The notes: generated by a model from the sequence alone, not told the origin. Positions 1 to 61,767 are shown, counted from the whole stretch's first letter. The stretch: DNA of 63,953 nt, filler included, from Globobulimina sp. (GCA_003354225.1; 28 parts of 28 records of this genome joined end to end with filler, not necessarily neighbours in it); one strand, 5' to 3'. Numbers and translations are program-made.

Positions 1-1053
1 AACCAAGGAATATACATATTGTAATGAAGATTCATGACTTGTGTTAACGAAAACATTTGGTGGAGTATCAATTTTATTGGTTGTTTCTTGCAACTCGGAA
101 ATTTCTTTCACAGTTTCTTGTATAAAAAATTTATTGGGAGTACCAAATAATTCTATTATTCCATTATTGCTGCCGAAAACATTCAGGGAACTTGCAGCCA
201 TTGTATAAATAAAGATTTTCACGAAGTGTGTCCAAACCAAAAGCAAATTGAAGCAGCCAGCCATGTATTAACTTGCTATTAATTGATGAATTATGTGAAA
301 ATGGCATAATATTTGCCAGTGAAGTCTCGAGCTCAGAGCAAACTGTAGAAAAGATATTGAATGAATGAAACATCACTCAAACATGTAACCAATTTAAAAA
401 TATTGATGTTACAAATAGTAATCCTATTAATAGTTAGATGCAGAATTTAATTTTAATATTACAGTGATTTTTTACAATATAGTATGATGGTAAAAAAAAT
501 ATAATAACAAATATTCGTTATTTGGATTACTTTAATTATTTCTTGCTGTTATGGTATGTCAATGCATTTAAATTTTAATCGCAGGTTATTGTGTATATGA
601 TTTTGTATTTATTTTTTTCCGACGCGCGACGTACTATAAAAAGATAAAAATATAAATATCAATATTATATGTAAAATTACACAGAAAGATCTTGAATATT
701 CACAGAGCAAATGATTCAATACTTGTATATTTAATGCACAGCTCACATTGATGGCAGCGCGGTAACTCCATCTCGATATCGACTATGTAACATCAGAGAT
801 GAATTGTGAATGGAATCGGAGAATAAAAAACAAAATGATAATAATTATAAAGCTATACAATTTGCGTTTGTTCGTCTATAGCAAAGATTGTATGTATTTT
901 CCAATTTCTGTGAAATATATATATATATATATACTCCAATTTAACGGAATCTCCCTAGTCCAGTAAAACGTTTTTGAGTCAAACTCCCAACTCTCATACT
1001 TTGTAGATTGTACCCGTTGTACCCAACTTCATTAACGTTTATAATTGGCCATA

Positions 1054-2177
1054 ATGAGCTGGTATTTTGTTGATCCAGACGGTGGCACCAAAGGCCCAAT
1101 GGACATATCCCAATTGAAACCATTATATGGCACTGAAATAACCGAAACAACATATTTATGGAATGGCATCAATATTCAACAATGGACAGAATTAAATAAA
1201 ATCCCCTCACTCTATGCAGAATTGAGCGGAGAGATTCGAAATGCTGCGGTCAACGCAGATGGATTAACACCAGATGACATTGATGATATTTTGGATGAGA
1301 TTGATTCTCAAAATAAAAATAATATGTCAGCTGTATCCGACGAGAAAGAGGAGAATGAGATACAAAAAGAAAAAGAAAATTCCAAAAAACAAAGCAAACC
1401 AAGAAAAAGCAAACCAAAAACCAAAAATAATAAAATGTATTCCATAAATTGGCGAGAAATCTATTTACATCGGCAATCTATACTAAATCTAGTGCAATCT
1501 GGTGATATTGACATAGATGTTCAGAATCCTTCCGATGGCATGACATTGTTGATGCATTCCATCATCATCGGCGACTTCAATCTGTGCGTTATTATTATCA
1601 ATTATGGCGCCGACATATTCATACGAGATAACGACGGCGATGATGCCTTGGATTATGCGCTGGTCTTCCAACGATACAAAGTGACGCAATTATTGTTAGG
1701 TATGCCATTCATGCACAGTTTGAACCATTTGTATGCCCTCAATCATAATTATAAAATGTACAAAACACAAAAAAAGTGCTTGGCTTTCTGCGAAATAAAA
1801 ATGAAGGCATCGAAGAAGCGATTGCGTATAAAAACAAACAGGCGAAATATATGATGCAGCAGCAATTCGGCCGCCTAAAAGAGAAAATCATTCAATTTGT
1901 GACCAAAGCCATTCGGGAGAAGGAATGTTTTGACATCAATTTGTTATATTTTGCATGGTATTTTACCGTAAATATGAAAGAGTTTGGCCATGGCCATAGC
2001 AGTACGAGTCCATCGTCGACGGTCTCTCCGCAGTCCACTTCGCATTCATCGCGCAATAAACATAAGCATAGACATAAGAAGATGATAAAATATAACCCGT
2101 ATCAAGACCCATTGCAATCGAAATTATTCAAAATAATGATGAAGACTTATTGGGCGATTATAAGCACTAAATCCTAG
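1054..2177 (+). CDS. GYF-like domain + ankyrin repeat protein, two exons (intron 1700-1776)
   Basis: N-terminal WYFVD..GP....L...I...TYLW...W (GYF_2-like); ankyrin repeats DGMTLLMHS, DGDDALDYA; removing GT1700..AG1776 joins ORF 1045-1854 in frame to ORF 1776-2177. Confidence 0.75.
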
Positions 2178-2189
2178 GCCAACAAAGGA

Positions 2190-2289
2190 NNNNNNNNNNN
2201 NNNNNNNNNNNNNNNNNNNNNNNNNNNNNNNNNTTAATTAATTAANNNNNNNNNNNNNNNNNNNNNNNNNNNNNNNNNNNNNNNNNNNN
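2190..2289. other. Artificial contig-joining linker (first of 27, recurring about every 2288 nt up to ~61668-61767)
   Basis: N-run + TTAATTAATTAA (stops in all six frames) + N-run, identical each time; flanking contigs are all ~2187-2189 nt. Confidence 0.98.
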
Positions 2290-2320
<31 letters not shown>

Positions 2321-2652
2321 CTTTTTTTTTCTTTTTCTTTTTTTTTTTTATTTCTTTTTTTTTCTTCTTCTTTTTTAGTAATCCTTATTTATTCGGGCGC
2401 GTGTTTTCCTGTGTTTTGCTTTTTTTTTGCCCGACTTCAAAGTTGGCCATCAATGTGTGATTCTTTCGTGGAGATTTATATGTGTATTTGAATGTTATTT
2501 ATTATTTTCTATGTTTTCATCACATTTTTATTCGCTATCTCTGATAAAAAGTCTTTGCGTTTAGTTAGCACATATATAACAACTAAAAACATCCAATCAC
2601 ATATATATATATTCGTATTAATTTGGAATTTGGATGATAATCTTAATGAATA

Positions 2653-4317
2653 TTACCCTTGACATTTTGCAAAGTTATTGATGATGGATTGATAATTATT
2701 AACCTGATCAGTTGACAAATTAAACCACGTATTATTAGCTCCCCAAAAATCTTGATCCAAATTGTAAAATTCACCCTGTCCTTCGGCTTGATCTGCTGGA
2801 CATTGCACTTCATTTTTTCCAGCATCAAAACATGTAAATGTACAATAAATTGTACCATTGTCAGCATTCGCAGGTATAGACCGTACACATTTATATGTAT
2901 TATTCCATTGGTCGCATACAGCCGACACAAATCCGGGTATTGCACATGAACAATTTTGATAGCCCCAATCTGAATTTCCCTGTTCGCCATAATATTCCAC
3001 AAAAAATTGTTGATCATTTGTATTGTATGAAGAGTTTGATTGCCATTCATCCTCAAACAATATGGGCAATAACGACAATCCGTCCATGTCCTGTGGTACT
3101 GCGCCCGTTGCAAGTTCTGCGATGGTTGCTGCGATATCTATGGATACGGCAATAGAATCCGTTGATTGCCCTCTAGGCACACCTGGGCCCATAATGGCCA
3201 TTGGAACTCTCAGATCTGTTTCATATAACTGTCTTTTATCAAAATGCATTCCAAATTCACCCAAATGGAAGCCGTGGTCACTGAAATAAATCCAATATGT
3301 CACATTTAGTAAACCCATTCGATCCACTTTGTTATAAACATCTTGAATCATATCATCAACACTTCTGAGTGCACCATGTCTATATCTATAAATAGCATCA
3401 GATTGATTTATTTTCAATTGTGACATTGCTGGTACTTCTCGTATTAATTGGTGGTGATCAGATACATCAGTCCCAGTTAAATCCCATGTCACTGTTCTTG
3501 GCGCAATCTCTCCTGACTCAGTATTGCTTTATTTTACATATTTTATTAATTATATATTTAATTGAATTTATATGTACAGTGTATTCATACTTATATTGAG
3601 GAGCGGGAGTAAATGGATCATGACAAGTTGGAGGAGATAATACCATTAAAAATGGCATATCAATGGGTTGATTATCTAAAAATTTAAGTGCACGGCGAAG
3701 TACATTATCAGGCAAATAATCGGTTGTATAATTTGAGCCAAAAGAGAAAGTTTCTCCATTATCACTAAGATCATAATTATAATATCTTGAATTTCCCTGT
3801 AATGTGTACCATTCGCTCCATCCTGGCGGGACATGGGATAAACCACCACAGCAATTATGCCCATACTGATTAAGGTATTTTCCAGCATAAACTGTATAAT
3901 TATTTGAAATGAAATGGAATGGATATATATAATTCATATCATACGTGTACGATATCCAGCATTTTGAGCCTGTACCGCATATGTTCTTTTTTCGACATTA
4001 TCGTTCCATGTTTGTGTGTTTTGACATCCTCCGGGTGCTGAATTATTAAATGTGTAGGTATTATGGACATATCTTCCGGATAACATTGAAGCTCTCGAAA
4101 CACAGCAAACCGGAGATGATACGAAAGCATTTCGAAATACTAAGCCTTGATCATATAATATCTTTTTTGTTTCCTTCATGGATTCTAATCCATTTAAAAT
4201 GACATCTTGATCATCAGTTAGTATCCAGATAATGTTTGGTTTACGATCCAATGGAGGACCATTTCCTGATAACACAATGCTCACAAATCCATACAATGCA
4301 AGCAATACAAAGTACAT
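2653..4317 (-). CDS. Secreted sulfatase, N-acetylglucosamine-6-sulfatase (GNS)-like; introns 3892-3944 and 3527-3590; a further 3' exon is possible
   Basis: Signal peptide, PNIIWILTDDQD, SSPVCCVSRASMLSGRY, YAGKYLNQY, SDHGFHLGE, DKRQLYETDLRVP; both introns are GT-AG and restore the frame. Confidence 0.9.
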
Positions 4318-4888
4318 TCGATAGACGCTAATTTAAGAGGACTTACTAGTTGTTTTTTTAGGAAAAGCAATAAATTAATTTCAAGAAACAATATGCAAAA
4401 AAATACAAAAATGAGGAAGGAAAATAGGTTAATAATAAAATGTTAATGGTTCCCGATGAAACACAACCTTTAAGAATTNNNNNNNNNNNNNNNNNNNNNN
4501 NNNNNNNNNNNNNNNNNNNNNNTTAATTAATTAANNNNNNNNNNNNNNNNNNNNNNNNNNNNNNNNNNNNNNNNNNNNGATAAAGCTCACAAATACTACG
4601 CGGCGTTTATCAAATAGTACATTGTCGATTAAATTTTTATTCAATGCGTTATATTTCAAAATAAATTCTTCTTTTGTCGCTTTTTTGTATTGTAATAATT
4701 GTTTAGATCTGCTGGTATTTGCATCGATACAGAGCCTTATTTAAATGTCAGAGTATGTAGATTTAATATTTGTAGCATGCGGACAAATAATAAACGTAAC
4801 GTGTTTCCCATGATGTTGTTGGAAGATAAAAGATATTTTTTTTAAACTTTTTGTTGTGTAGAAAAGAGAAAATTCACTCCCACAAAAA

Positions 4889-5503
4889 TTAGTGTTTCCG
4901 ATATCGATCATAGTTATTGTTATGATATCTTTTGTTTCTTTGATTTGAATAGTTTTGATTACAATTTTCTGAGTTATTATTTTGAAACAACACATTTTCT
5001 GAGTTACCATGATGGCAGCAATTAAAACAACATATTGGTTGCTTACAAGTTTTACATCCAAAACGCTGTGAACATGATCCAACAGCTCGATTATTAACAA
5101 ATTTCTGGTGTTGGCAAAACATGGCGTTGCAATTTTTACATTTACCATGCTTATCACAAATTGTTTTTGAATGACCACTGCATTTTCCACCATTTATTCC
5201 ATCCATAAACATATTGTGACAGATGACTCTTTCCCAAAAACTCCCCATCATCACAGAACAGGCACATTTTATCAATTTTTGGCTACATTGCCAACAAAAT
5301 AAATATGAATCATGATTGTAATATCTCTCATTTAATATGGGGTCAAATGAATATTTATTATCATTCTTTTCTAATGATTTGTGTGCATTCAATATCAAAA
5401 TTGCTGTTTTACACATTCTATTTTTACATTCTTCAATTTTGCCTGTGGCAAATAGTGCGATTAAAATCAAGATATTCTTTTCTGGCACGTTTGATGTTGA
5501 CAA
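4889..5503 (-). CDS. Hypothetical Cys-rich (possible zinc-binding) protein
   Basis: 204-aa ORF with several CxxC pairs and an Asn-rich tail; no family recognised. Confidence 0.5.
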   Translation of the reverse strand: MSTSNVPEKNILILIALFATGKIEECKNRMCKTAILILNAHKSLEKNDNKYSFDPILNERYYNHDSYLFCWQCSQKLIKCACSVMMGSFWERVICHNMFMDGINGGKCSGHSKTICDKHGKCKNCNAMFCQHQKFVNNRAVGSCSQRFGCKTCKQPICCFNCCHHGNSENVLFQNNNSENCNQNYSNQRNKRYHNNNYDRYRKH

Positions 5504-6199
5504 TAATATTTTGTATATATTTTCGCATTGCTTATAATCTTTGGGGTCTTTGAAATATTCTGTTATTTTTGCCTGTACAAAATAAACATATTACAACATA
5601 TTTTAGCATGCAAGAAACAACCTAAACATAGTAAACTAACAGTGTTGTCCATGGTGCTTAGTAGTACAGTTTTGGATAATAATTACTTGGCAAGAGTGCA
5701 AAATCGTAATCGCATCATTTCTCAAAAACGTATAATCCAATATGTTTACATTACAAGATTACATTACAAGATTGCAAGATTTATTAATTAATTATTTAAT
5801 TGCTGTGTGGACGATGGTATTAATTGACAAAATAAATACAAAACAAATTACAAACAATCAACACAAATATTAATAATACAAACAAAGAGAATTATTAATT
5901 ATAATTATAATATGTACGGACAACATTAATATGTTGTGAGTCTTCATTCAAATGGTTACACTTTTAATTGTATATTGGTTCCTGAATCCTGATGCGTTGA
6001 AAGGTTGAAACAAAATTCTTTTGCAACATGGAGAATGTTAAAATGTTCAGACTTCAGATCCTCGCAGTTTGACTCAAAATTTATTTTTGTGAATGAATGT
6101 TATATTCCCAATATATTTATAGGTTTTATATTTTTATGAATTTCAACAAATGTATATTGTCAGAGCAAAACCCTTTTGGTGCATGAAAAGTTATGCAAA

Positions 6200-6767
6200 C
6201 TACTTTAACGTTTGTAATTTTATTAGACACCACATACTGGAATATTGTTTATAATATTTCAAGTCAGTTGCCTCAAACAACAACATTTGCTCTGATAATC
6301 TGTTTTTATTGTTGTTACCTCTCCATTTTTGCAATATGGATAAAATGAGTGAATTATTAATGAATAACTGTCTCTTTTCAAATTTTGTTGATAATAACCA
6401 TTCTATATTTTGTATTGCTTTATCACCTAAAAATTGTTGCAAATCGATTGAATTTAACCATTTATTATTTACATTTTGATTGATTTTATAATTACTATTT
6501 ATTAAATATACATTGATCATTTTAAAACTTCTATTTCGAAACAAACAATGACAATCACTCCAATCCATTCTTATCATATTATCCAATCCGCCATCATTAC
6601 TATTTATTGTTGGAACATCAGTGATAATAATAATTGATTTCTCCTTCTCTTCCTCCATTAACATCTTTTTCTTTTCGATTAACTCAATGCAAATCGATAT
6701 ATATCCTAACAAAATCTTATAATTATTTCTTTTTCTGCCAATTGTTAATATATTTGCATTAATTGAT
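6200..6767 (-). CDS. Hypothetical protein, 3' part (5' end beyond contig edge)
   Basis: Open frame of at least 170 aa near the linker; no family recognised. Confidence 0.45.
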
Positions 6768-6867
6768 NNNNNNNNNNNNNNNNNNNNNNNNNNNNNNNNN
6801 NNNNNNNNNNNTTAATTAATTAANNNNNNNNNNNNNNNNNNNNNNNNNNNNNNNNNNNNNNNNNNNN

Positions 6868-8245
6868 TAATACATAAATATTGTTCATCTGAATGTGAAC
6901 CAAGACATTGTTGATAAATAACATCGCACGAACCGCTCTGTATACTTTGTTTAACATTCCACGCATTATACGCTGCATCATATACTGCCCAATTACCTGA
7001 ACAGTCCATAATATCATCAAACTCATCACAAACAGCACCACTATAATTTCTATTGTAATCGATATCAATTCGCCACGAATTACCGTCACAAAAATAATGC
7101 AGTGTCAGATTCCCGCCATGTGTCAAATTATTTGCATAGTAATCATCATATTGAGTGTGGTTATAGGAATGCATTAATTCTACACATGTGTCATACTCAT
7201 AAATGCCAACCATTAATTCAAATTCATCTCTGCCAATTCCACCATAGATACAAAATGTATCATGTTTCGTATCTGTACAGGCTGTCATTATAAAAGGTAT
7301 AATTATATCATTTATATGCGTGTTTGTACTGTACAGATACGGTCAGAAACAAGAAATTGTTTTATATTATGAGCAAACTAAACTATTGCATAAACCAGAG
7401 ATGACTGCAGAATCTTTGACAGTGTCCTCTCCGTCCCATATATACCAATTATTTGAACACATTTTAAGATCATTATATGAACAAAAAGCAAAGTGACTCC
7501 ACGCGACTACATTTACAGCAGAACTCATATACCATGCATTCATCTCGTTGTCCCATGAGATTACCTGACCATTACTTGTATAATATGCCTTTTCCTCTGA
7601 ACACCCACTCACTGAAAAAGAGCCACTAATTCCAACATTAACACTGCGATGATGTGTGTTACGGATACAAAAGTCTTGCTCATTGTGGTTGCCTTTGCCA
7701 AATGTATGGTTATATTGTGCTAAACATTGGGTATTGTCATAGGTGCATGGTACGATACTCATACTATAGTCGGTTTGCGTCGATGTTCCATCAAATCTCG
7801 ACCATGTGTTTACTGTGCAAGCATCTAACGAAGAGTGCAAGCAATATGCCCAATAATCGGTTGATGAGAGACTTGAGCCAATGTACCATTTATTTAACCC
7901 ATCATCCCAATGAATATATACATTATTCTCAAACGTTTCTGGTAATTGTGTATTCTCAAAACTATTATGCCGTATTCTTACAATTAATTTGCAACACACA
8001 AGGTATAGATAACAAAAACTAAACTATTTGCAACCTTCATCCATTCCTTTGTATTGGTAACGTGCTCCAATAAATGATGCATATTCGTTTGGTGATAATC
8101 CAATGAGACAATAAGAATTATAATTTGCACAGCTTGTGTACATATCTGTGGTTGACGGACCGCCGGGACCGGTGGTTGGTTCTTTGGTCGGCGTCACTGA
8201 TGCGAGTGATGGGATAATCCATATTATTAATAAAATTAATAACTA
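6868..8245 (-). CDS. Secreted Cys/Trp-rich repeat protein, multi-exon, 3' truncated
   Basis: Signal-like LLILLIIWIIPSLA then TPTKEPTT; repeated module (W..W.I/M...A.C....L..C...W..FDG) in ORFs 7367-7999 and 6812-7288; start codon not located. Confidence 0.65.
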
Positions 8246-9056
8246 TGTTTGTTAATAATTCCGTTTATTACGAATAAATCGGAAAAATTGTACGCGATAT
8301 AGACAAGATAGAATATTGAGCGATTTTGCTTTTGGTGTTTGGTTTTGTGGTGATATTTGATGACAAAATAAATTTTGATGTTTGTAGGGAAAGTAAGGAA
8401 ACTAAAATTAAATTAAATAAAGAATAACACTGTGTAGGGCCAGAGAATTATTGTGTTAAGCACCCTCTGCCATCAATAATCCCCAGTCAATGAATGAACA
8501 CAGAAAAGTTTTTGATGATAGAAACGAAAAACACTCAAAGCACTAACACAAAACACAAAAATTAAAAATATAAAATTAAAACTGAAATATCCATAAAATT
8601 CCATTCCAAAATAGCGACAAACAATTTCACTTTTAAAAAGTATGGATATCGCTCAAGAACCTTCAACACAAATGGTAAATTTCAATGGAAGGAACTTGGC
8701 AAATTGTTGAAACTTGGAGAGAAATAATAATCTGATCCCAAGGACGAATAATAATAAAATAAAATGTTAGAATAATATGATATTTGCTAAGTGAAACAAT
8801 AAATCCATATCAGGAGCTTGAATGTAACTTGTACTGTACTCACGATCCAATCTGGAATTTTGGATATGTGAGTTTGATACACCAATTATCTGAATACAAT
8901 AACCCATTCTTCTCCACTTAATTCCGTCGAGCCTGTCACAGCCAAAGCTGAGGAAATAATTAATAACTATGTTTGTTAATAATTCCGTTTATTACGAATA
9001 AATCGGAAAAATTGTACGCGATATAGACAAGATAGAATATTGAGCGATTTTGCTTT
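8234..9056 (+). repeat. 99-bp exact direct repeat (8234-8332 and 8958-9056)
   Basis: aattaataactatgtttg...gagcgattttgcttt occurs twice; the second copy ends at the contig edge. Confidence 0.9.
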
Positions 9057-9157
9057 NNNNNNNNNNNNNNNNNNNNNNNNNNNNNNNNNNNNNNNNNNNN
9101 TTAATTAATTAANNNNNNNNNNNNNNNNNNNNNNNNNNNNNNNNNNNNNNNNNNNNT

Positions 9158-9510
9158 TATCGTGAAAAGGCGCGGAGGGTATTACTGCTCTATAATCCAC
9201 CATGGCCATCTCACCAACGATTACTGTCTGATTTGCTGAATGTTTATTGTTTGGCAAAGCTGCAGGTAGCGGTTCATCATCATTATCCAACAAATATTGT
9301 ATGGCATCATTTAAGTTCCCGTTTCTTGCTCTCAATGCTTCCATATTTTTTGCTTCGTTTGTAAATCCCATACATTGTAATGCCATTTGGTGTTCCTTTA
9401 TTTTACATCAACATGTTTTATTTATAAAATACCAACCCATACATTGTCATATGCATAAAATATGGAACCTGATAGTTTTGGCGATTTTTGTTGCTGCTAC
9501 AAGTTCCCAT
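9158..9510 (-). CDS. Probably N-acylated UBA-domain protein (intron 9396-9468), 3' truncated
   Basis: Exon 1 MGTCSSNKNRQNYQ splices in frame to EHQMALQCMGFTNEAKNMEALRARNGNLNDAIQYLL (UBA MGF motif). Confidence 0.75.
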
Positions 9511-9562
9511 TATTATTATTAGTGTACTTCGAATTTCGAAACTAAAACTACTATAAAGTTTA

Positions 9563-10579
9563 ATGGCAACTGTTAACAAAAGTAGTAGTGATTCGAAAGT
9601 ATCATTATTAGGCACAAAATATGAAGTAAAATGCTCAGAAACATATGCATATTACGAAGGATATGTGTGTGATTATGACGAGTATTTGCAACGATTAAAG
9701 GTTGCATATACATGGAAAGCTGATGAATATGTTGACATTTCATGGGTGAGGCCACCTGCATGGTCAGCTCATCCCAATTGGAAACCAAAAAAAGGTGATA
9801 CAATTGAAGCTAAAGCAAAGGCAGAACAGGATGAACCATACGGATGGTGGAGAGTCACCGTTAACGAAGTAAGAGATAATCGTTATAAAATTGGCTATGA
9901 AGGCTGGGAAAATCATCATGAAGTACTCCAGCTATCCATGTTAAGACCAAACAATGATGAACCACCATTGACAGCTAATGGAATAATTCGCACTTTTTAT
10001 GATATATCGCCAGAAATAAGTCTACATTTTGCAATTGGTTCTGTGAATGAAGCGACAAGGTATACATTGCAAAGCATTGCGCACCAAACAAAGCTAATAC
10101 ATTTAAATTACAGTGCGGATCAAAAATTAATATTAATTGGCACACGAGGGGCTGTTGCAGACGCCACAAAAATACTGAATCGGTCTTTTGATGATAAATG
10201 TAATCAATGTGGAAAATTGCAAAAAGAAATGAAAATACAAAGCGAAAAGGTCGATGAGTTAATGGAGAAAAACGAGGAATTGAACAAGAAAATAATGTTA
10301 TTTGAGGGAGCTCGATATTTGGTCGACCGATTGAATATGGATGAAATGGACGCATTGGAGTCTAAATTGTTTGATGCAATGCACAAAGTGCAACAAGCGA
10401 AGAAAAGATTGCTTGGAAATAAATATAAATGTGTAGTTTGTCGAGAAAATGCAAAGAATGTTTTGATCGTTGCCTGTAAACATGTTTGTTTGTGCTTTGA
10501 GTGTGAACAGAAATTGCAACGAAAGAATTGTCCAATTTGTAGAACACCATATCGAAAGATTGTTAAATTGAAATTTTAA
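9563..10579 (+). CDS. Tandem Agenet/Tudor + KH0-like (FMR1/FXR N-terminus-like) + coiled coil + C3HC4 RING protein
   Basis: EVK...YYEGYV.D...VRPP and GDTIEAKAKAEQDEPYGWWRVTV..LRP match the FMRP Agenet pattern; C-terminal CVVC..ACKHVCLCFEC..CPICR. Confidence 0.8.
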   Translation: MATVNKSSSDSKVSLLGTKYEVKCSETYAYYEGYVCDYDEYLQRLKVAYTWKADEYVDISWVRPPAWSAHPNWKPKKGDTIEAKAKAEQDEPYGWWRVTVNEVRDNRYKIGYEGWENHHEVLQLSMLRPNNDEPPLTANGIIRTFYDISPEISLHFAIGSVNEATRYTLQSIAHQTKLIHLNYSADQKLILIGTRGAVADATKILNRSFDDKCNQCGKLQKEMKIQSEKVDELMEKNEELNKKIMLFEGARYLVDRLNMDEMDALESKLFDAMHKVQQAKKRLLGNKYKCVVCRENAKNVLIVACKHVCLCFECEQKLQRKNCPICRTPYRKIVKLKF

Positions 10580-11446
10580 ATAATTAGTATCCCTTTATGT
10601 ATTTTTTTTCGTTTGTTATGTTCCATTTTATCCTGTGATTGTTTGAATTATTTGATTAGTATGCAACAACTATGTGTTATTATATGTGTGTGTTTCACTC
10701 ACATATTTAGTAAATCCACTGTGGATAAGTAGTAACGTGAATTATTGTGTGTATTTAATTAAATTAAAATCTTGTAGTCATAGGCCAATATAGGCTTGGA
10801 ACATTGTTATAATAATAATATTTTGCGTGAATCTATATCGATCTGTAATATATTTAATGAACGACATTTATACGAAATATTCAACAAATATTGCTACGAA
10901 ATATAAAAAAAAACTACATTCAACAAATTGCTACGCATTCAATAGCAATTTCACAGCTTTGTGAGTGCAACGACATAACACGAAATCCAGAAACTTTACT
11001 TTGTGAGAAATACTCTTCTTCAAAAACATTATAATTTGATTTCTTCAAAACACTAAGAAATCAATTTCTGAACGTGAGAAATACGCATTTCCCTCAACTG
11101 CTATGTATAATCATGTAGCGGACCTACAAAATGTATTAAAATTTTCAAACAGCACAAAAACACTATAATTTGAAATTAAAATTCACATTACCAAACATTC
11201 TTGGTCACCGTCACCGGTTGGTACATGTGGTTGTATCGGTCCATTTGGTTCATTTGGCTGTTGCAATAATGGTGGTTGAACAGCTACTGGTGTTGGATAA
11301 TGATGTCCATTAACTGGTGTTGGATAATAATCAGAATTCTGATTANNNNNNNNNNNNNNNNNNNNNNNNNNNNNNNNNNNNNNNNNNNNTTAATTAATTA
11401 ANNNNNNNNNNNNNNNNNNNNNNNNNNNNNNNNNNNNNNNNNNNNT

Positions 11447-20884: not shown

Positions 20885-22406
20885 TTAAGAAAAAGACGTA
20901 TCAATTTTGGCCAAAACAAGTAATATCGGCATGAGATTCACAAACGTACCTAAAATAATGCATATTATGACCCAAGTTTGTATTTTTATTTTGTTGGATA
21001 ACTTGAATTTTTTATCCACAACCTGCTTTACAATTTGTTGCATCACATTTTGTAATTCTTTTCGACTAAAATTTTGAATCACTCTTTGCTTGCCATATTC
21101 ACCCATTTTTAATGTTAATCCTTTATTGTCAACAAATTGTTTCATTGCCTCGACCCATTCAGTTTGATCCTCATTTTGTTGACATAAAAAGCCAGTTTTT
21201 GTATGAATAATTGTCTCCAATGGACCACCACTTTTCTGTGCAATGACAGGTCTCATTGCTAACATTGCTTCAATTGGAACAATCCCAAAATGTTCATTTT
21301 GTGGCGTATATATCACACAACAACACTCTTTCAATAATTCTTCTTTTTCCTTATCTGCAAATTTTGTAACAAAATAAACAGAAACTGAGGCATCGATATA
21401 CTTTCTATCTAAAAACAGTATATTTTCATCCATTTTTTCATCATTAGCTTGTGATTGCAAATTAATAAACTGATATTTTAATTTCATTTCATTACAAAGC
21501 TCAATTAACTCTGAAAAATACTGTTTATTTTCAAGCACTCTCTCATCATAACCTCCAGCAACAATTAATTTGATATTTTGTATTATTTTTTCATTTCTCT
21601 TCTCATTTTGTAAAGTAATAAATAGTTTATTTAATGCTTTGATAGCGATATCAATTTGTTTCTTTCTTTCATAACGATTGATGGATAAAAATGTAATTCG
21701 TTTGTTTTGTTTGTGATTATATTTATAAATAGAATGGAATTGATTGATATTAATTGCTGGATAAACAACTTTTGGTTGTAAAAATGGCATTTTTTTTAAC
21801 AATGGAAACGTTTTTAAGACAATTTGTTTTGTATATTGTGAGTTAACTAATAATTCATCGCAATTTACAGTTGTGATGCTTTCAAACCAATCAATTAAAA
21901 CTCTATATTTCTTATTTAAATTTAAAAATGAGGCTTTTTTATTTCTATTTTGCACCAATAATAAATCTGGATGGTGACAATAATAAATAACTTTTGTTTT
22001 TTGGTTTTTTAATTTTAAAAATGGAATGACTGCGGCGACCTGGTCAATGAATATAATGTCATAATGAACATTGCTCCATAACACACGTAAGGAACACCAT
22101 AGCATTCGATAGATGGACAGTAATGCATGACATTTACCAAATATATGACGTGGGATCCAATCACCATAAACTTCAATATTATTTCCTAAAATATCTATTT
22201 TTTTGGGTGATTGTGTGTGATTATAATACAAGAATATAATTTATCATACTTTCATCGGTTGTTTCATCAAAAGCTCTATTCCGATCGTGATGTGATGTGT
22301 AAATTGTTATGTGATGACCGTTTGCTTTCAATGCAATTGCTTCATCAATGGTTTGTCTCTCAGCACCACCTTGACCCAAATCCAAATGAACGATTGCTAT
22401 TTTCAT
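20885..22406 (-). CDS. ALG2: Alpha-1,3/1,6-mannosyltransferase (GT4), intron 22195-22249
   Basis: HLDLGQGGAER, HHD....FDET, VYGDWIPR, LSINRYERKK, AGGYDERV.EN, YTPQNEHFGIVPIEAM, SGGPLET. Confidence 0.93.
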
Positions 22407-61667: not shown

Positions 61668-61767
61668 NNNNNNNNNNNNNNNNNNNNNNNNNNNNNNNNN
61701 NNNNNNNNNNNTTAATTAATTAANNNNNNNNNNNNNNNNNNNNNNNNNNNNNNNNNNNNNNNNNNNN

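What the first reader, a model, noticed from the sequence alone, without database searches (positions are those of the whole stretch)
9563..10579. FMRP-like Agenet-Agenet-KH0 module fused to a RING E3 finger in a protist-like genome
Seen: the first ~205 aa follow, by eye, the FMR1/FXR N-terminus in order (EV...YEGYV.D; W.....V....VRPP; D.IE......EP.GWW...V; E......LRP.N...P.T; LNY....KLILIG......A..IL). A coiled coil and a C3HC4 RING follow instead of KH1/KH2/RGG. Established: FMR1/FXR proteins are characterised mainly in animals and have no RING. Inference: a methyl-lysine/arginine-reading ubiquitin ligase built from the FMRP interaction module, relevant to FMRP origins. It sits head-to-head (52 nt) with a UBA-domain gene.
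Basis: partly seen in the sequence, partly recalled or inferred. Interest (0 to 1): 0.72.

Follow-up and report, generated by a model that had tools for sequence, protein, structure and literature searches.

The report
FMRP-type reader module fused to RING
A probable foraminiferal gene encodes the front end of the fragile-X protein family (two Agenet domains plus KH0) joined through a coiled coil to a RING ubiquitin-ligase finger, a rare domain swap that shows this "animal" protein family also exists and diversifies in protists.

Summary
Window 9563..10579 (+) is an intact, intron-free 338-aa ORF. Residues ~15-219 are an FMRP/FXR-type Agenet-Agenet-KH0 module: FXR2 E 5e-11 by sequence, and the AlphaFold model (pLDDT 92.9) aligns to human FMRP 4OVA at Z 17.6 over 194 of 199 residues, while plant tandem Agenets cover only 15-137. 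Residues 195-288 form a coiled coil, and 289-338 are a complete C3HC4 RING (Pfam E 4e-13; 40% identical to the MUL1 RING).

The closest relatives of the N-terminal module (48-57% identity) are foraminiferal and metatranscriptome proteins with the full FMRP plan (KH1, KH2, RGG). The coiled-coil-RING cassette recurs behind RRM, zf-CW, ankyrin and TPR domains. Only 2 of 150 best representatives from 1.84 billion proteins share both modules, one of them from Nonionella stella.

My reading is a dimeric RING E3 that uses the FMRP module for targeting and arose as a derived paralogue of a foraminiferal FMRP-like gene. Methyl-lysine reading is not shown: FMRP T102/Y103 correspond to N117/H118 here. 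It is a new variant of a known kind (reader domain plus RING). The window is a concatenation of ~2.2-kb contigs, so only the UBA neighbour is genuine context.

The parts
9563..10579 (+). Complete single-exon CDS, 338 aa including the stop codon (P0001)
   Evidence: Contigs of runs X5, X6 and X8 cover the whole ORF collinearly, with no internal joint from 9626 onwards.
9614..9748 (+). Agenet/Tudor domain 1 (aa 18-62)
   Evidence: AF2 strands 18-23, 30-39, 44-48 and 55-58. Aligned to FXR2/FXR1/FMRP Tud1.
9794..9955 (+). Agenet/Tudor domain 2 (aa 78-131), with W95/W96/Y112, and N117/H118 at the FMRP T102/Y103 positions
   Evidence: Pfam Agenet 78-129, E 6.8e-6, 26.9 bits, just under the cut-off of 27. 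Alignments.
9980..10144 (+). KH0-like domain core (aa 140-194; beta-alpha-alpha-beta-beta, its last helix running on into the coiled coil). No GXXG in the alpha1-alpha2 loop.
10145..10426 (+). Coiled-coil region (aa 195-288): helical hairpin and predicted homodimer interface
   Evidence: AF2 helices. Complex prediction ipSAE 0.47 against a best control of 0.00, interface residues 198-283.
10427..10576 (+). C-terminal C3HC4 RING finger (aa 289-338) with a C-terminal aromatic residue
   Evidence: Pfam zf-C3HC4_3 E 4.1e-13. Ligand spacing. MUL1 RING 6m2c Z 9.8, 40% identity.
9157..9510 (-). 5' part of the divergent UBA-domain gene: exon 1 about 9469-9510, intron about 9396-9468 (73 nt, GT..AG), exon 2 from 9395 down to the contig end at 9157
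9057..9156 (.). Artificial linker (44 N + TTAATTAATTAA + 44 N), left end of the real contig
11346..11445 (.). Artificial linker, right end of the real contig

Best explanation
This is a real, conserved gene of a probable foraminifer. It encodes a homodimeric RING-type ubiquitin ligase whose targeting end is the N-terminal interaction module of the FMRP/FXR family (Agenet1-Agenet2-KH0).

Shown:
- The domain order.
- An intact RING with all eight zinc ligands.
- Descent of the N-terminal module from within the foraminiferal FMRP-like proteins.
- Membership of the C-terminal half in a coiled-coil-RING cassette that the same organisms attach to other binding domains (RRM, zf-CW, ankyrin, TPR).

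Inferred:
- A duplicated FMRP-like gene lost KH1-KH2-RGG and acquired the cassette. The junction lies in the helix that follows KH0, where human FXR1 has its dimerising CC1.
- The protein dimerises through the coiled coil, the RING recruits an E2~ubiquitin, and the FMRP-type module docks the ligase on the same ligands that the KH-bearing FMRP-like paralogues use. These would be protein partners or components of FMRP-like RNP assemblies, possibly the paralogues themselves, and they are then ubiquitinated.
- Because KH1/KH2/RGG are absent and KH0 has no GXXG, the protein is not expected to bind RNA itself.
For: - Intact ORF.
- The same ORF occurs in contigs of other runs: X5 with 11 differences in 1025 nt, and X6/X8 with about 92 differences. 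Of the 29 listed X6 differences, 18 are at third codon positions, and 15 of 26 changed codons are synonymous. Only part of the differences was listed.
- FMRP/FXR match by sequence, by fold and by profile (probability 100, E 8e-63, 389 columns, collinear through KH0).
- N-terminal module lies in a starred (97/91) 9-row clade with Nonionella, Bolivina and metatranscriptome KH-type proteins.
- RING: Pfam E 4e-13 and all ligands present. All 33 RING-bearing rows of alignment A1 keep the seven Cys positions counted; the His count there was muddied by misaligned rows. Nearest solved RINGs are MUL1, cIAP2, IDOL, XIAP and MGRN1.
- Cassette behind other domains. Several cassette proteins are foraminiferal.
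- Same architecture in Nonionella stella P0007 and in JGI protein P0011.
- Homodimer model: ipSAE 0.47 against a best control of 0.00, runs agree in at least 96% of contacts, partner pLDDT at least 85. The mark was reached by 21 of 30 proteins solved as pairs and 0 of 23 solved as single chains; on eukaryotes 17 of 29 and 0 of 30, and a pass may come from memory.
- FXR1 CC1 around N202 mediates dimerisation (bioRxiv 10.1101/2023.11.05.565677, passages read).
Against: - No biochemical evidence of any kind. The ligand of the FMRP-type module is unknown in these organisms.
- Pfam KH_9 (FMRP KH0) does not recognise the protein. KH0 therefore rests on a predicted fold, which may lean on FMRP structures seen in AF2 training, and on the profile alignment.
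- FMRP T102/Y103 are N117/H118.
- P0011 lacks KH0, so KH0 is not essential to every member.
- The KH-type paralogue of the same organism was not in hand. Only a hint of one was seen in run X5.
- No run is on record as RNA. That X6/X8 are RNA is inferred only from a splice-like joint in the neighbouring gene.
Confidence: 0.6

Rival explanations
1. Chromatin-directed reader-writer. The tandem Agenet reads methylated histone lysines, as reported for FMRP and the plant AGDP1/ADCP1 proteins, and the RING ubiquitinates chromatin, working like UHRF1 (tandem Tudor plus RING).
For: Tandem-Agenet fold matches to H3K9me-binding plant Agenets (Z about 12.5) and to the UHRF1 tandem Tudor domain (Z about 10). 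W95/W96/Y112 are conserved. FMRP Agenets are reported to bind methyl-lysine and nucleosomes (PMC4259889, passages read; PMC2970552, passages and section 9 read). A sister cassette protein carries zf-CW; that zf-CW is a methyl-lysine reader is recalled, not checked here.
Against: The positions of FMRP T102/Y103, needed for nucleosome binding, are N117/H118. No nuclear-targeting or DNA-binding feature was looked for or seen. The best matches are the cytoplasmic RNP protein family, not the chromatin readers.
Confidence: 0.2
2. Non-catalytic or regulatory paralogue. The protein acts mainly as a dominant-negative or scaffold that heterodimerises with FMRP-like proteins, and the RING serves only as a dimerisation or structural knob.
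For: It retains every part that FXR proteins use for protein-protein contact (Tudor, KH0, the CC1 position; passages) and lacks the RNA-binding parts.
Against: All eight zinc ligands are intact, as are the Pro after the seventh ligand and the Arg after the last ligand (the roles of these two residues are recalled). It is 40% identical to the active MUL1 RING. The RING positions are conserved across the cassette family.
Confidence: 0.1
3. Artefact: an assembly chimera of two genes, a mis-called ORF or a decaying pseudogene.
For: The window is a concatenation of very small contigs from a fragmentary assembly. Read depth is low, about 4.4 in X1.
Against: Single contigs from three other runs and two further coded organisms span both halves. 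Two independent proteins share the architecture. The frame is open, differences are biased to third positions, and the model has pLDDT 92.9.
Confidence: 0.03
4. A generic Agenet protein unrelated to FMRP, whose resemblance is confined to the Tudor fold.
For: Pfam names only 'Agenet', at 26.9 bits against a cut-off of 27. Tudor_FRX1 and KH_9 do not hit.
Against: FXR2, FXR1 and FMRP are the only non-RING PDB sequence hits. The FMRP N-terminal domain aligns over 194 of 199 residues, while plant Agenets stop at residue 137. The profile is collinear with P0148, a protein carrying Tudor_FRX1, KH_9, KH_1 and FXMRP1_C_core.
Confidence: 0.03

Closest known systems
FMRP/FXR1/FXR2 N-terminal domain (PDB 4OVA, 4QVZ, 3H8Z, 3KUF)
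   Same: Two Agenet/Tudor barrels followed by a GXXG-less KH0, in the same order and packing (Z 17.6, 194 of 199 residues). The WW and Tyr positions of Agenet2 are conserved. A helix after KH0 lies at the position of FXR1 CC1.
   Different: About 20-29% identity. KH1, KH2, the FXMRP1 C-core and the RGG box are replaced by a coiled coil plus RING. T102/Y103 are N/H. Pfam Tudor_FRX1 and KH_9 do not hit.
Foraminiferal / marine-metatranscriptome FMRP-like proteins (P0002-P0006, P0008; Nonionella stella, Bolivina argentea)
   Same: 48-57% identity over aa 8-210. Same clade in the tree. Same GW(E/D)NHHE motif.
   Different: They continue into KH1-KH2 and RGG-rich tails; the window protein continues into CC-RING.
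C-terminal-RING E3 ligases of the zf-C3HC4_3 type (MUL1, cIAP1/2, XIAP, IDOL/MYLIP, MDM2, MGRN1)
   Same: C3HC4 RING at the extreme C-terminus with a short tail. A dimer is predicted. Dimeric activity of the IAP, IDOL and MDM2 RINGs is recalled knowledge.
   Different: The N-terminal domains are unrelated. The predicted dimer contact here is the preceding coiled coil (residues 198-283), not shown to be the RING itself.
UHRF1/UHRF2 (tandem Tudor + PHD + SRA + RING)
   Same: A tandem Tudor-type reader and a RING in one chain. The tandem Tudor fold matches at Z about 10. It works as a reader-guided ligase.
   Different: No UBL, PHD or SRA. The Tudor pair is of the FMRP type with KH0. No sequence relationship beyond the fold (10-12% identity).
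RNA-binding RING ligases such as MEX3 (KH-KH-RING), and TRIM ligases (RING-B-box-coiled coil)
   Same: A KH-fold domain or coiled coil combined with a RING. The MEX3C RING is a weak sequence hit (E 2e-4).
   Different: KH0 lacks GXXG. Domain order is opposite to TRIM and there is no B-box.

Membership tests
FMR1/FXR (FMRP) family | Tandem Agenet/Tudor domains at the N-terminus | tested here: met
FMR1/FXR (FMRP) family | KH0 domain after the Agenets | tested here: met
   Predicted fold aligned to 4OVA through residue 219; collinear profile alignment to the KH_9 region of P0148. Pfam KH_9 itself gives no hit, so this is met by fold and profile, not by the curated model.
FMR1/FXR (FMRP) family | KH1 and KH2 RNA-binding domains with GXXG | tested here: not met
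   No KH_1 or KH_2 hit. Residues after 195 are helices and the RING.
FMR1/FXR (FMRP) family | C-terminal disordered region with RGG box | tested here: not met
   The protein ends in the RING at residue 338 and has no RGG.
RING-type E3 ubiquitin ligases (zf-C3HC4_3 subgroup) | Eight zinc ligands in cross-brace C3HC4 spacing | tested here: met
   C290, C293, C305, H307, C311, C314, C323, C326. Invariant in the three Agenet-RING proteins.
RING-type E3 ubiquitin ligases (zf-C3HC4_3 subgroup) | Score above the curated family threshold | tested here: met
   49.4 bits against 27
RING-type E3 ubiquitin ligases (zf-C3HC4_3 subgroup) | E2-dependent ubiquitin transfer | not testable with these tools
   Needs an in vitro ubiquitination assay.
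Methyl-lysine readers of the Royal family (FMRP Agenet2 pocket) | Conservation of the residues needed for methyl-lysine/nucleosome binding in FMRP (T102, Y103) | tested here: not met
   They align to N117 and H118. Among rows of A1 this position is H in 18 and Y in 9 of 47 filled. W95/W96/Y112 are kept. Binding itself was not tested.
Plant tandem-Agenet histone readers (AGDP1/ADCP1/AGDP3) | Tandem Agenet repeats alone, best match to the plant proteins | tested here: not met
   Plant entries score Z 11.8-12.7 over 15..137 only, below FMRP (17.6) and FXR1/2 (about 15).
UHRF1-like ligases | UBL, PHD and SRA domains beside the tandem Tudor and RING | tested here: not met
   No such Pfam hits
TRIM/RBCC ligases | N-terminal RING, then B-box, then coiled coil | tested here: not met
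   The RING is C-terminal and there is no B-box hit.

The most novel reading that the evidence does not exclude
The FMRP family is not an animal invention. Foraminifera and other marine protists carry the complete Agenet-Agenet-KH0-KH1-KH2-RGG plan. In them the N-terminal module behaves as a portable docking unit that has been joined to a coiled-coil-RING cassette, possibly more than once. The N-terminal tree separates the three RING-bearing proteins (AU p 0.028), whereas the RING tree does not (p 0.47). The resulting ligase would be a client of FMRP-like RNP networks: it co-assembles with the KH-type paralogues through Agenet/KH0 and the CC1-position helix, and ubiquitinates them or their cargo. 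That would give a built-in turnover switch for FMRP-type granules.
Probability: 0.2. Interest if true: 0.75.

Novelty: new variant of a known kind. Interest (0 to 1): 0.5.

Why it matters
Three points would matter if this holds.

1. It extends the fragile-X protein family's N-terminal module into a new functional setting, ubiquitin ligation. It shows the module working as an autonomous unit separable from the RNA-binding half. That fits the view of Agenet-KH0 as a protein-interaction platform.

2. With the full-length FMRP-like proteins of the same organisms, it places the family well outside animals. My literature searches found no paper describing this. The library lacks most subscription journals, so this is absence in those searches only.

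3. It reveals a modular protist E3 family (binding domain, then coiled coil, then C-terminal RING) that includes RNA-binding (RRM) and zf-CW versions.

The practical limit is that foraminifera are hard experimental systems. The first tests would be done with recombinant protein.

Tried and rejected
- The search for homologous proteins with the single protein found nothing at E <= 0.001 among 551 candidates. With the 3-sequence profile it found 4 proteins, and only P0011 has a RING.
- The ESM Atlas gave no usable hit.
- Single-sequence AF2 failed (pLDDT 39.4). The alignment-based model replaced it.
- No whole genome is held, so copy number and the same-organism KH-type paralogue could not be examined. 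tblastn of P0004 and P0040 against the window hit only this ORF.
- The metagenome scan gave 2 weak loci. L001 is KH-type and neither has a RING.
- Earlier findings of this scan: nothing.
- Sequencing runs: no RNA holder is listed. X6/X7/X8 are only guessed to be RNA. Parts without cover in some runs are not interpreted.
- dN/dS could not be computed, because only 29 of about 92 differences were listed.
- Aromatic-cage residues are not named in the parts of the FXR1/2 structure paper that I read. I used the T102/Y103 mutants from PMC4259889 instead.
- Single origin of the fusion is neither shown nor excluded: N-terminal tree AU p 0.028 against one clade, CC-RING tree p 0.47 (quick tree, 127 columns). 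Both P0007 and P0011 sit on long branches.
- Rows dropped before the N-terminal tree: 12 near-duplicate cluster members and 4 short or partial rows (P0068, P0087, P0107, P0151), leaving 39 of 55.
- Genomic context beyond 9157..11345 was rejected as meaningless, because the window is stitched from separate contigs. The ALG2 ORF used as a taxon check therefore lies on another contig (best hit 70%, a EukProt entry; animals at most 43%).

Full report
**What is there**

Window 9563..10579 (+) is an uninterrupted ORF of 338 codons from ATG to TAA, with an in-frame stop two codons upstream of the ATG.

The window itself is not a chromosome stretch. It consists of 28 pieces of about 2.19 kb joined by 27 identical 100-nt linkers (44 N, TTAATTAATTAA, 44 N). 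The only genuine context is therefore the contig 9157..11345.

**N-terminal module**

Pfam reports one Agenet domain (aa 78-129, E 6.8e-6, 26.9 bits against a cut-off of 27) and no Tudor_FRX1 or KH_9.

- Sequence: against the sequences of solved structures, the only non-RING hits are FXR2 (3h8z, E 5.2e-11, query 19-137), FXR1 (3kuf, 1.7e-8) and FMRP (2bkd, 4ova, 4qvz, 4qw2, about 2e-6).
- Model: a single-sequence AlphaFold run failed (pLDDT 39.4). With a 66-row alignment (A1) the model reached pLDDT 92.9 and pTM 0.72. It shows two five-stranded barrels (18-62, 78-131) and a beta-alpha-alpha-beta-beta unit (141-194) whose closing helix runs on from 195.
- Fold search: Foldseek ranks the FMRP N-terminal domain first (4qw2, 4ova, 4qvz; E 7e-14 to 1e-12, about 207 columns, TM 0.73-0.75 on the target). 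VIA-align gives 4ova_C Z 17.6, rmsd 3.9, 194 of 199 residues, model 15..219. FXR1/2 Tudor pairs score Z about 15 and plant tandem Agenets Z 11.8-12.7, and both stop at about residue 137.
- Profile check independent of the model: the window protein aligned with its foraminiferal relatives (A4) matches a profile of canonical-type proteins (A5, headed by P0148) with probability 100, E 8e-63, over 389 columns. The alignment is collinear through the KH0 region. P0148 carries Tudor_FRX1, Agenet, KH_9, KH_1 and FXMRP1_C_core.
- No GXXG lies between the first two KH0 helices.

The Agenet-Agenet-KH0 reading is confirmed, with one caveat: KH0 rests on a predicted fold and a profile, not on the curated Pfam model.

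**C-terminal half**

Helices 195-247, 251-255 and 259-288 precede a RING with all eight ligands: C290, C293, C305, H307, C311, C314, C323, C326.

- Pfam zf-C3HC4_3: E 4.1e-13, 49.4 bits against 27.
- Nearest solved RINGs: MGRN1 by sequence (E 2.5e-9); MUL1 (Z 9.8, 40% identity), cIAP2, IDOL, XIAP and Bre1 by fold.
- Two copies of aa 195-338 gave a predicted homodimer: ipSAE 0.47 against a best control of 0.00, runs agreeing in at least 96% of contacts, partner pLDDT at least 85, interface residues 198-283. The mark was reached by 21 of 30 proteins solved as pairs and by 0 of 23 solved as single chains; on eukaryotes 17 of 29 and 0 of 30. A pass may reflect memory of similar complexes.

**Relatives**

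HMMER against 1.84 billion representatives found 2186 proteins at E <= 0.001, 131 at E <= 1e-10 and 9 at E <= 1e-30.

I split the query into parts and re-scored the 150 listed proteins. Of these, 55 carry the FMRP-type N-terminal module, 97 carry the RING (60 of them with the coiled coil), and 2 carry both: P0007 and P0011. A protein with both halves would score high, so further examples below rank 150 are unlikely; that is an inference.

- The five best hits (48-57% identity over aa 8-210) are long proteins. P0003-P0006 carry KH_1 domains and Gly/Arg-rich tails; the fifth, P0002, is a 477-aa form with no Pfam hit, whose 791-aa cluster member was not scanned.
- P0004 also hits the FMR1 KH1-KH2 structure 2qnd (E 2.6e-6).
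- Of the 55 N-terminal-module proteins, 31 have KH_1, 10 Tudor_FRX1, 3 KH_9 and 2 the RING.
- Where the sources give names they are foraminifera: P0002 and P0007 Nonionella stella, P0008 and P0020 Bolivina argentea. Several cassette proteins are also foraminiferal: P0038 and P0054 N. stella, P0043 and P0115 B. argentea.
- The rest are unnamed metatranscriptome or assembly proteins.
- An ALG2 ORF on another contig of the window has a 70% EukProt best hit, and animals reach at most 43%.

The organism is therefore probably a foraminifer or a close relative. No whole genome is held.

**Origin of the fusion**

In a maximum-likelihood tree of the N-terminal module (39 rows, 254 columns):

- The window protein lies in a starred clade (97/91) with P0002-P0006, P0008, P0009 and P0012.
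- P0011 is sister to the KH-type P0017 (96/95), in a group with B. argentea P0020.
- P0007 sits unresolved near that group.

Forcing the three RING-bearing proteins together costs 24.9 log-likelihood units (AU p 0.028). In the coiled-coil-RING tree (79 rows, 127 columns, quick search) they are not together either, but forcing them costs only 1.1 units (p 0.47). P0007 and P0011 are on long branches.

One fusion or two therefore remains open. What is clear is that the window gene's N-terminal module derives from within the foraminiferal FMRP-like proteins. Its C-terminal half belongs to a cassette also found behind RRM (P0040), zf-CW (P0044), ankyrin (P0108) and TPR (P0046) domains. P0011 has an acidic linker in place of KH0.

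**Is the gene real and in use?**

- Contigs of other public runs hold the whole ORF. X5 (another coded organism) covers 9557..10581 with 11 differences. X6 and X8 cover 9551/9590..10599/10620 with about 92 differences, and X6 also has an in-frame 18-nt deletion in the Ser-rich N-terminal tail.
- Of the 29 differences listed for X6 within the ORF (the remainder were not printed), 18 are at third positions, and 15 of 26 changed codons are synonymous. That is the pattern of a coding sequence under constraint.
- No run is on record as RNA. However, X6 and X8 contigs skip 73 nt (9395/6..9467/8) with GT..AG ends on the minus strand in the neighbouring gene, which is how spliced cDNA looks. This joint is absent from X1 and X5. 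It hints that those runs are RNA and that a 91%-identical version of the ligase gene is transcribed. It is not proof for this copy.

**Neighbour**

On the minus strand, 9386 downwards encodes a UBA domain (Pfam E 2e-5, 24.8 bits against 22.4). It is cut off by the contig end at 9157.

From the ATG at 9386 the gap is 176 nt. A divergent pair of a ubiquitin-binding protein and a ubiquitin ligase is suggestive of shared regulation, but nothing more can be said.

**Mechanism**

Shown:
- The domain order, an intact RING, and the absence of KH1/KH2/RGG and of GXXG in KH0.
- Membership in a modular cassette family.

Inferred:
- Dimerisation through the coiled coil, recruitment of E2~ubiquitin by the RING, and targeting by the FMRP-type module.
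- In human FXR1 the helix after KH0 is the dimerising CC1 (N202), and Tudor, coiled-coil and RGG domains recruit clients into the FXR1 network (bioRxiv 10.1101/2023.11.05.565677, passages read). In the model the FMRP chain aligns up to residue about 219-227, into the start of the long helix. The window protein therefore keeps every protein-contact element of the family and swaps the RNA-binding half for a ligase.
- I consider docking on the partners of the KH-type paralogues (or on the paralogues themselves) the most likely targeting mode.

A chromatin methyl-lysine reader role is the main rival. Against it, FMRP T102 and Y103, whose mutation abolishes nucleosome binding (PMC4259889, passages read), correspond to N117 and H118. 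W79/W80/Y96 correspond to W95/W96/Y112. The N-H-H motif is shared with the foraminiferal KH-type proteins.

**Comparison and novelty**

The protein fails two defining features of the FMR1/FXR family (KH1-KH2 and RGG), so it is not a family member in the strict sense. It is a paralogue sharing the N-terminal module. It meets the sequence definition of a C3HC4 RING E3.

In kind, a reader-type domain guiding a RING, it resembles UHRF1. In cassette logic it resembles modular E3 families. I found no description of this architecture, or of FMRP-like proteins in foraminifera, in six full-text searches. That library lacks most subscription journals, and supplements were not consulted.

I rate it a new variant of a known kind, with moderate interest. 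The more far-reaching point, noticed in passing, is the presence of the complete FMRP plan in these protists.

Noticed in passing
whole window; linkers at 2190-2289, 4479-4578... 61668-61767: The window is a size-sorted concatenation of about 2.19-kb contigs joined by 27 identical linkers (44 N + TTAATTAATTAA + 44 N). Gene neighbourhoods across linkers are artificial, and some long ORFs listed by the ORF listing into linkers.
   Followed up: yes
proteins P0003-P0006, P0010, P0013, P0020 (not in the window): Foraminiferal and marine-metatranscriptome proteins carry the complete FMRP plan: two Agenets, KH0, KH1, KH2 and an RGG-rich tail. 31 of 55 N-terminal-module representatives have KH_1. The profile match to canonical FMR1/FXR-type proteins is E 8e-63. 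My literature searches found no report of the family outside animals.
   Followed up: partly
proteins P0040, P0044, P0108, P0046, P0043 (not in the window): The same coiled-coil plus C-terminal RING cassette follows RRM, zf-CW, ankyrin, TPR and a TAN-like region in other proteins, several from Nonionella and Bolivina. This is a modular protist E3 family.
   Followed up: partly
window 9157-9510 (-): UBA-domain gene with a 73-nt GT..AG intron right after a 14-codon first exon. The exon begins Met-Gly and has Ser at position 6, a pattern that recalls N-myristoylation signals (recalled, not tested). The gene is cut by the contig end.
   Followed up: partly
window 10635-10811: Depth in run X1 rises to 84-118 against about 4-6 on either side, with many short contigs and loose ends. 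This is a dispersed repeat just downstream of the ligase gene.
   Followed up: no
window 9694-9732 (run X5, record 11): A 402-nt contig of run X5 touches only this stretch. Its loose ends, read in frame, resemble the KH-type foraminiferal FMRP-like proteins. This suggests that organism B has both the KH-type gene and the RING-type gene.
   Followed up: no
window 9582-9599: The X6 version lacks 18 nt, in frame, in the Ser-rich N-terminal tail, which is the only low-confidence part of the model (pLDDT under 50 for residues 1-14).
   Followed up: no
window 8300-8340 and 9020-9056: A stretch of about 37 nt is repeated within the preceding contig, the second copy lying at its very end next to the linker (seen).
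   Followed up: no
window 20885-22105 (-): Complete ALG2-type mannosyltransferase ORF on another contig. The best hit is 70% identical (a EukProt entry), three ENA contigs are at 60-65%, and animals reach at most 43%.
   Followed up: partly
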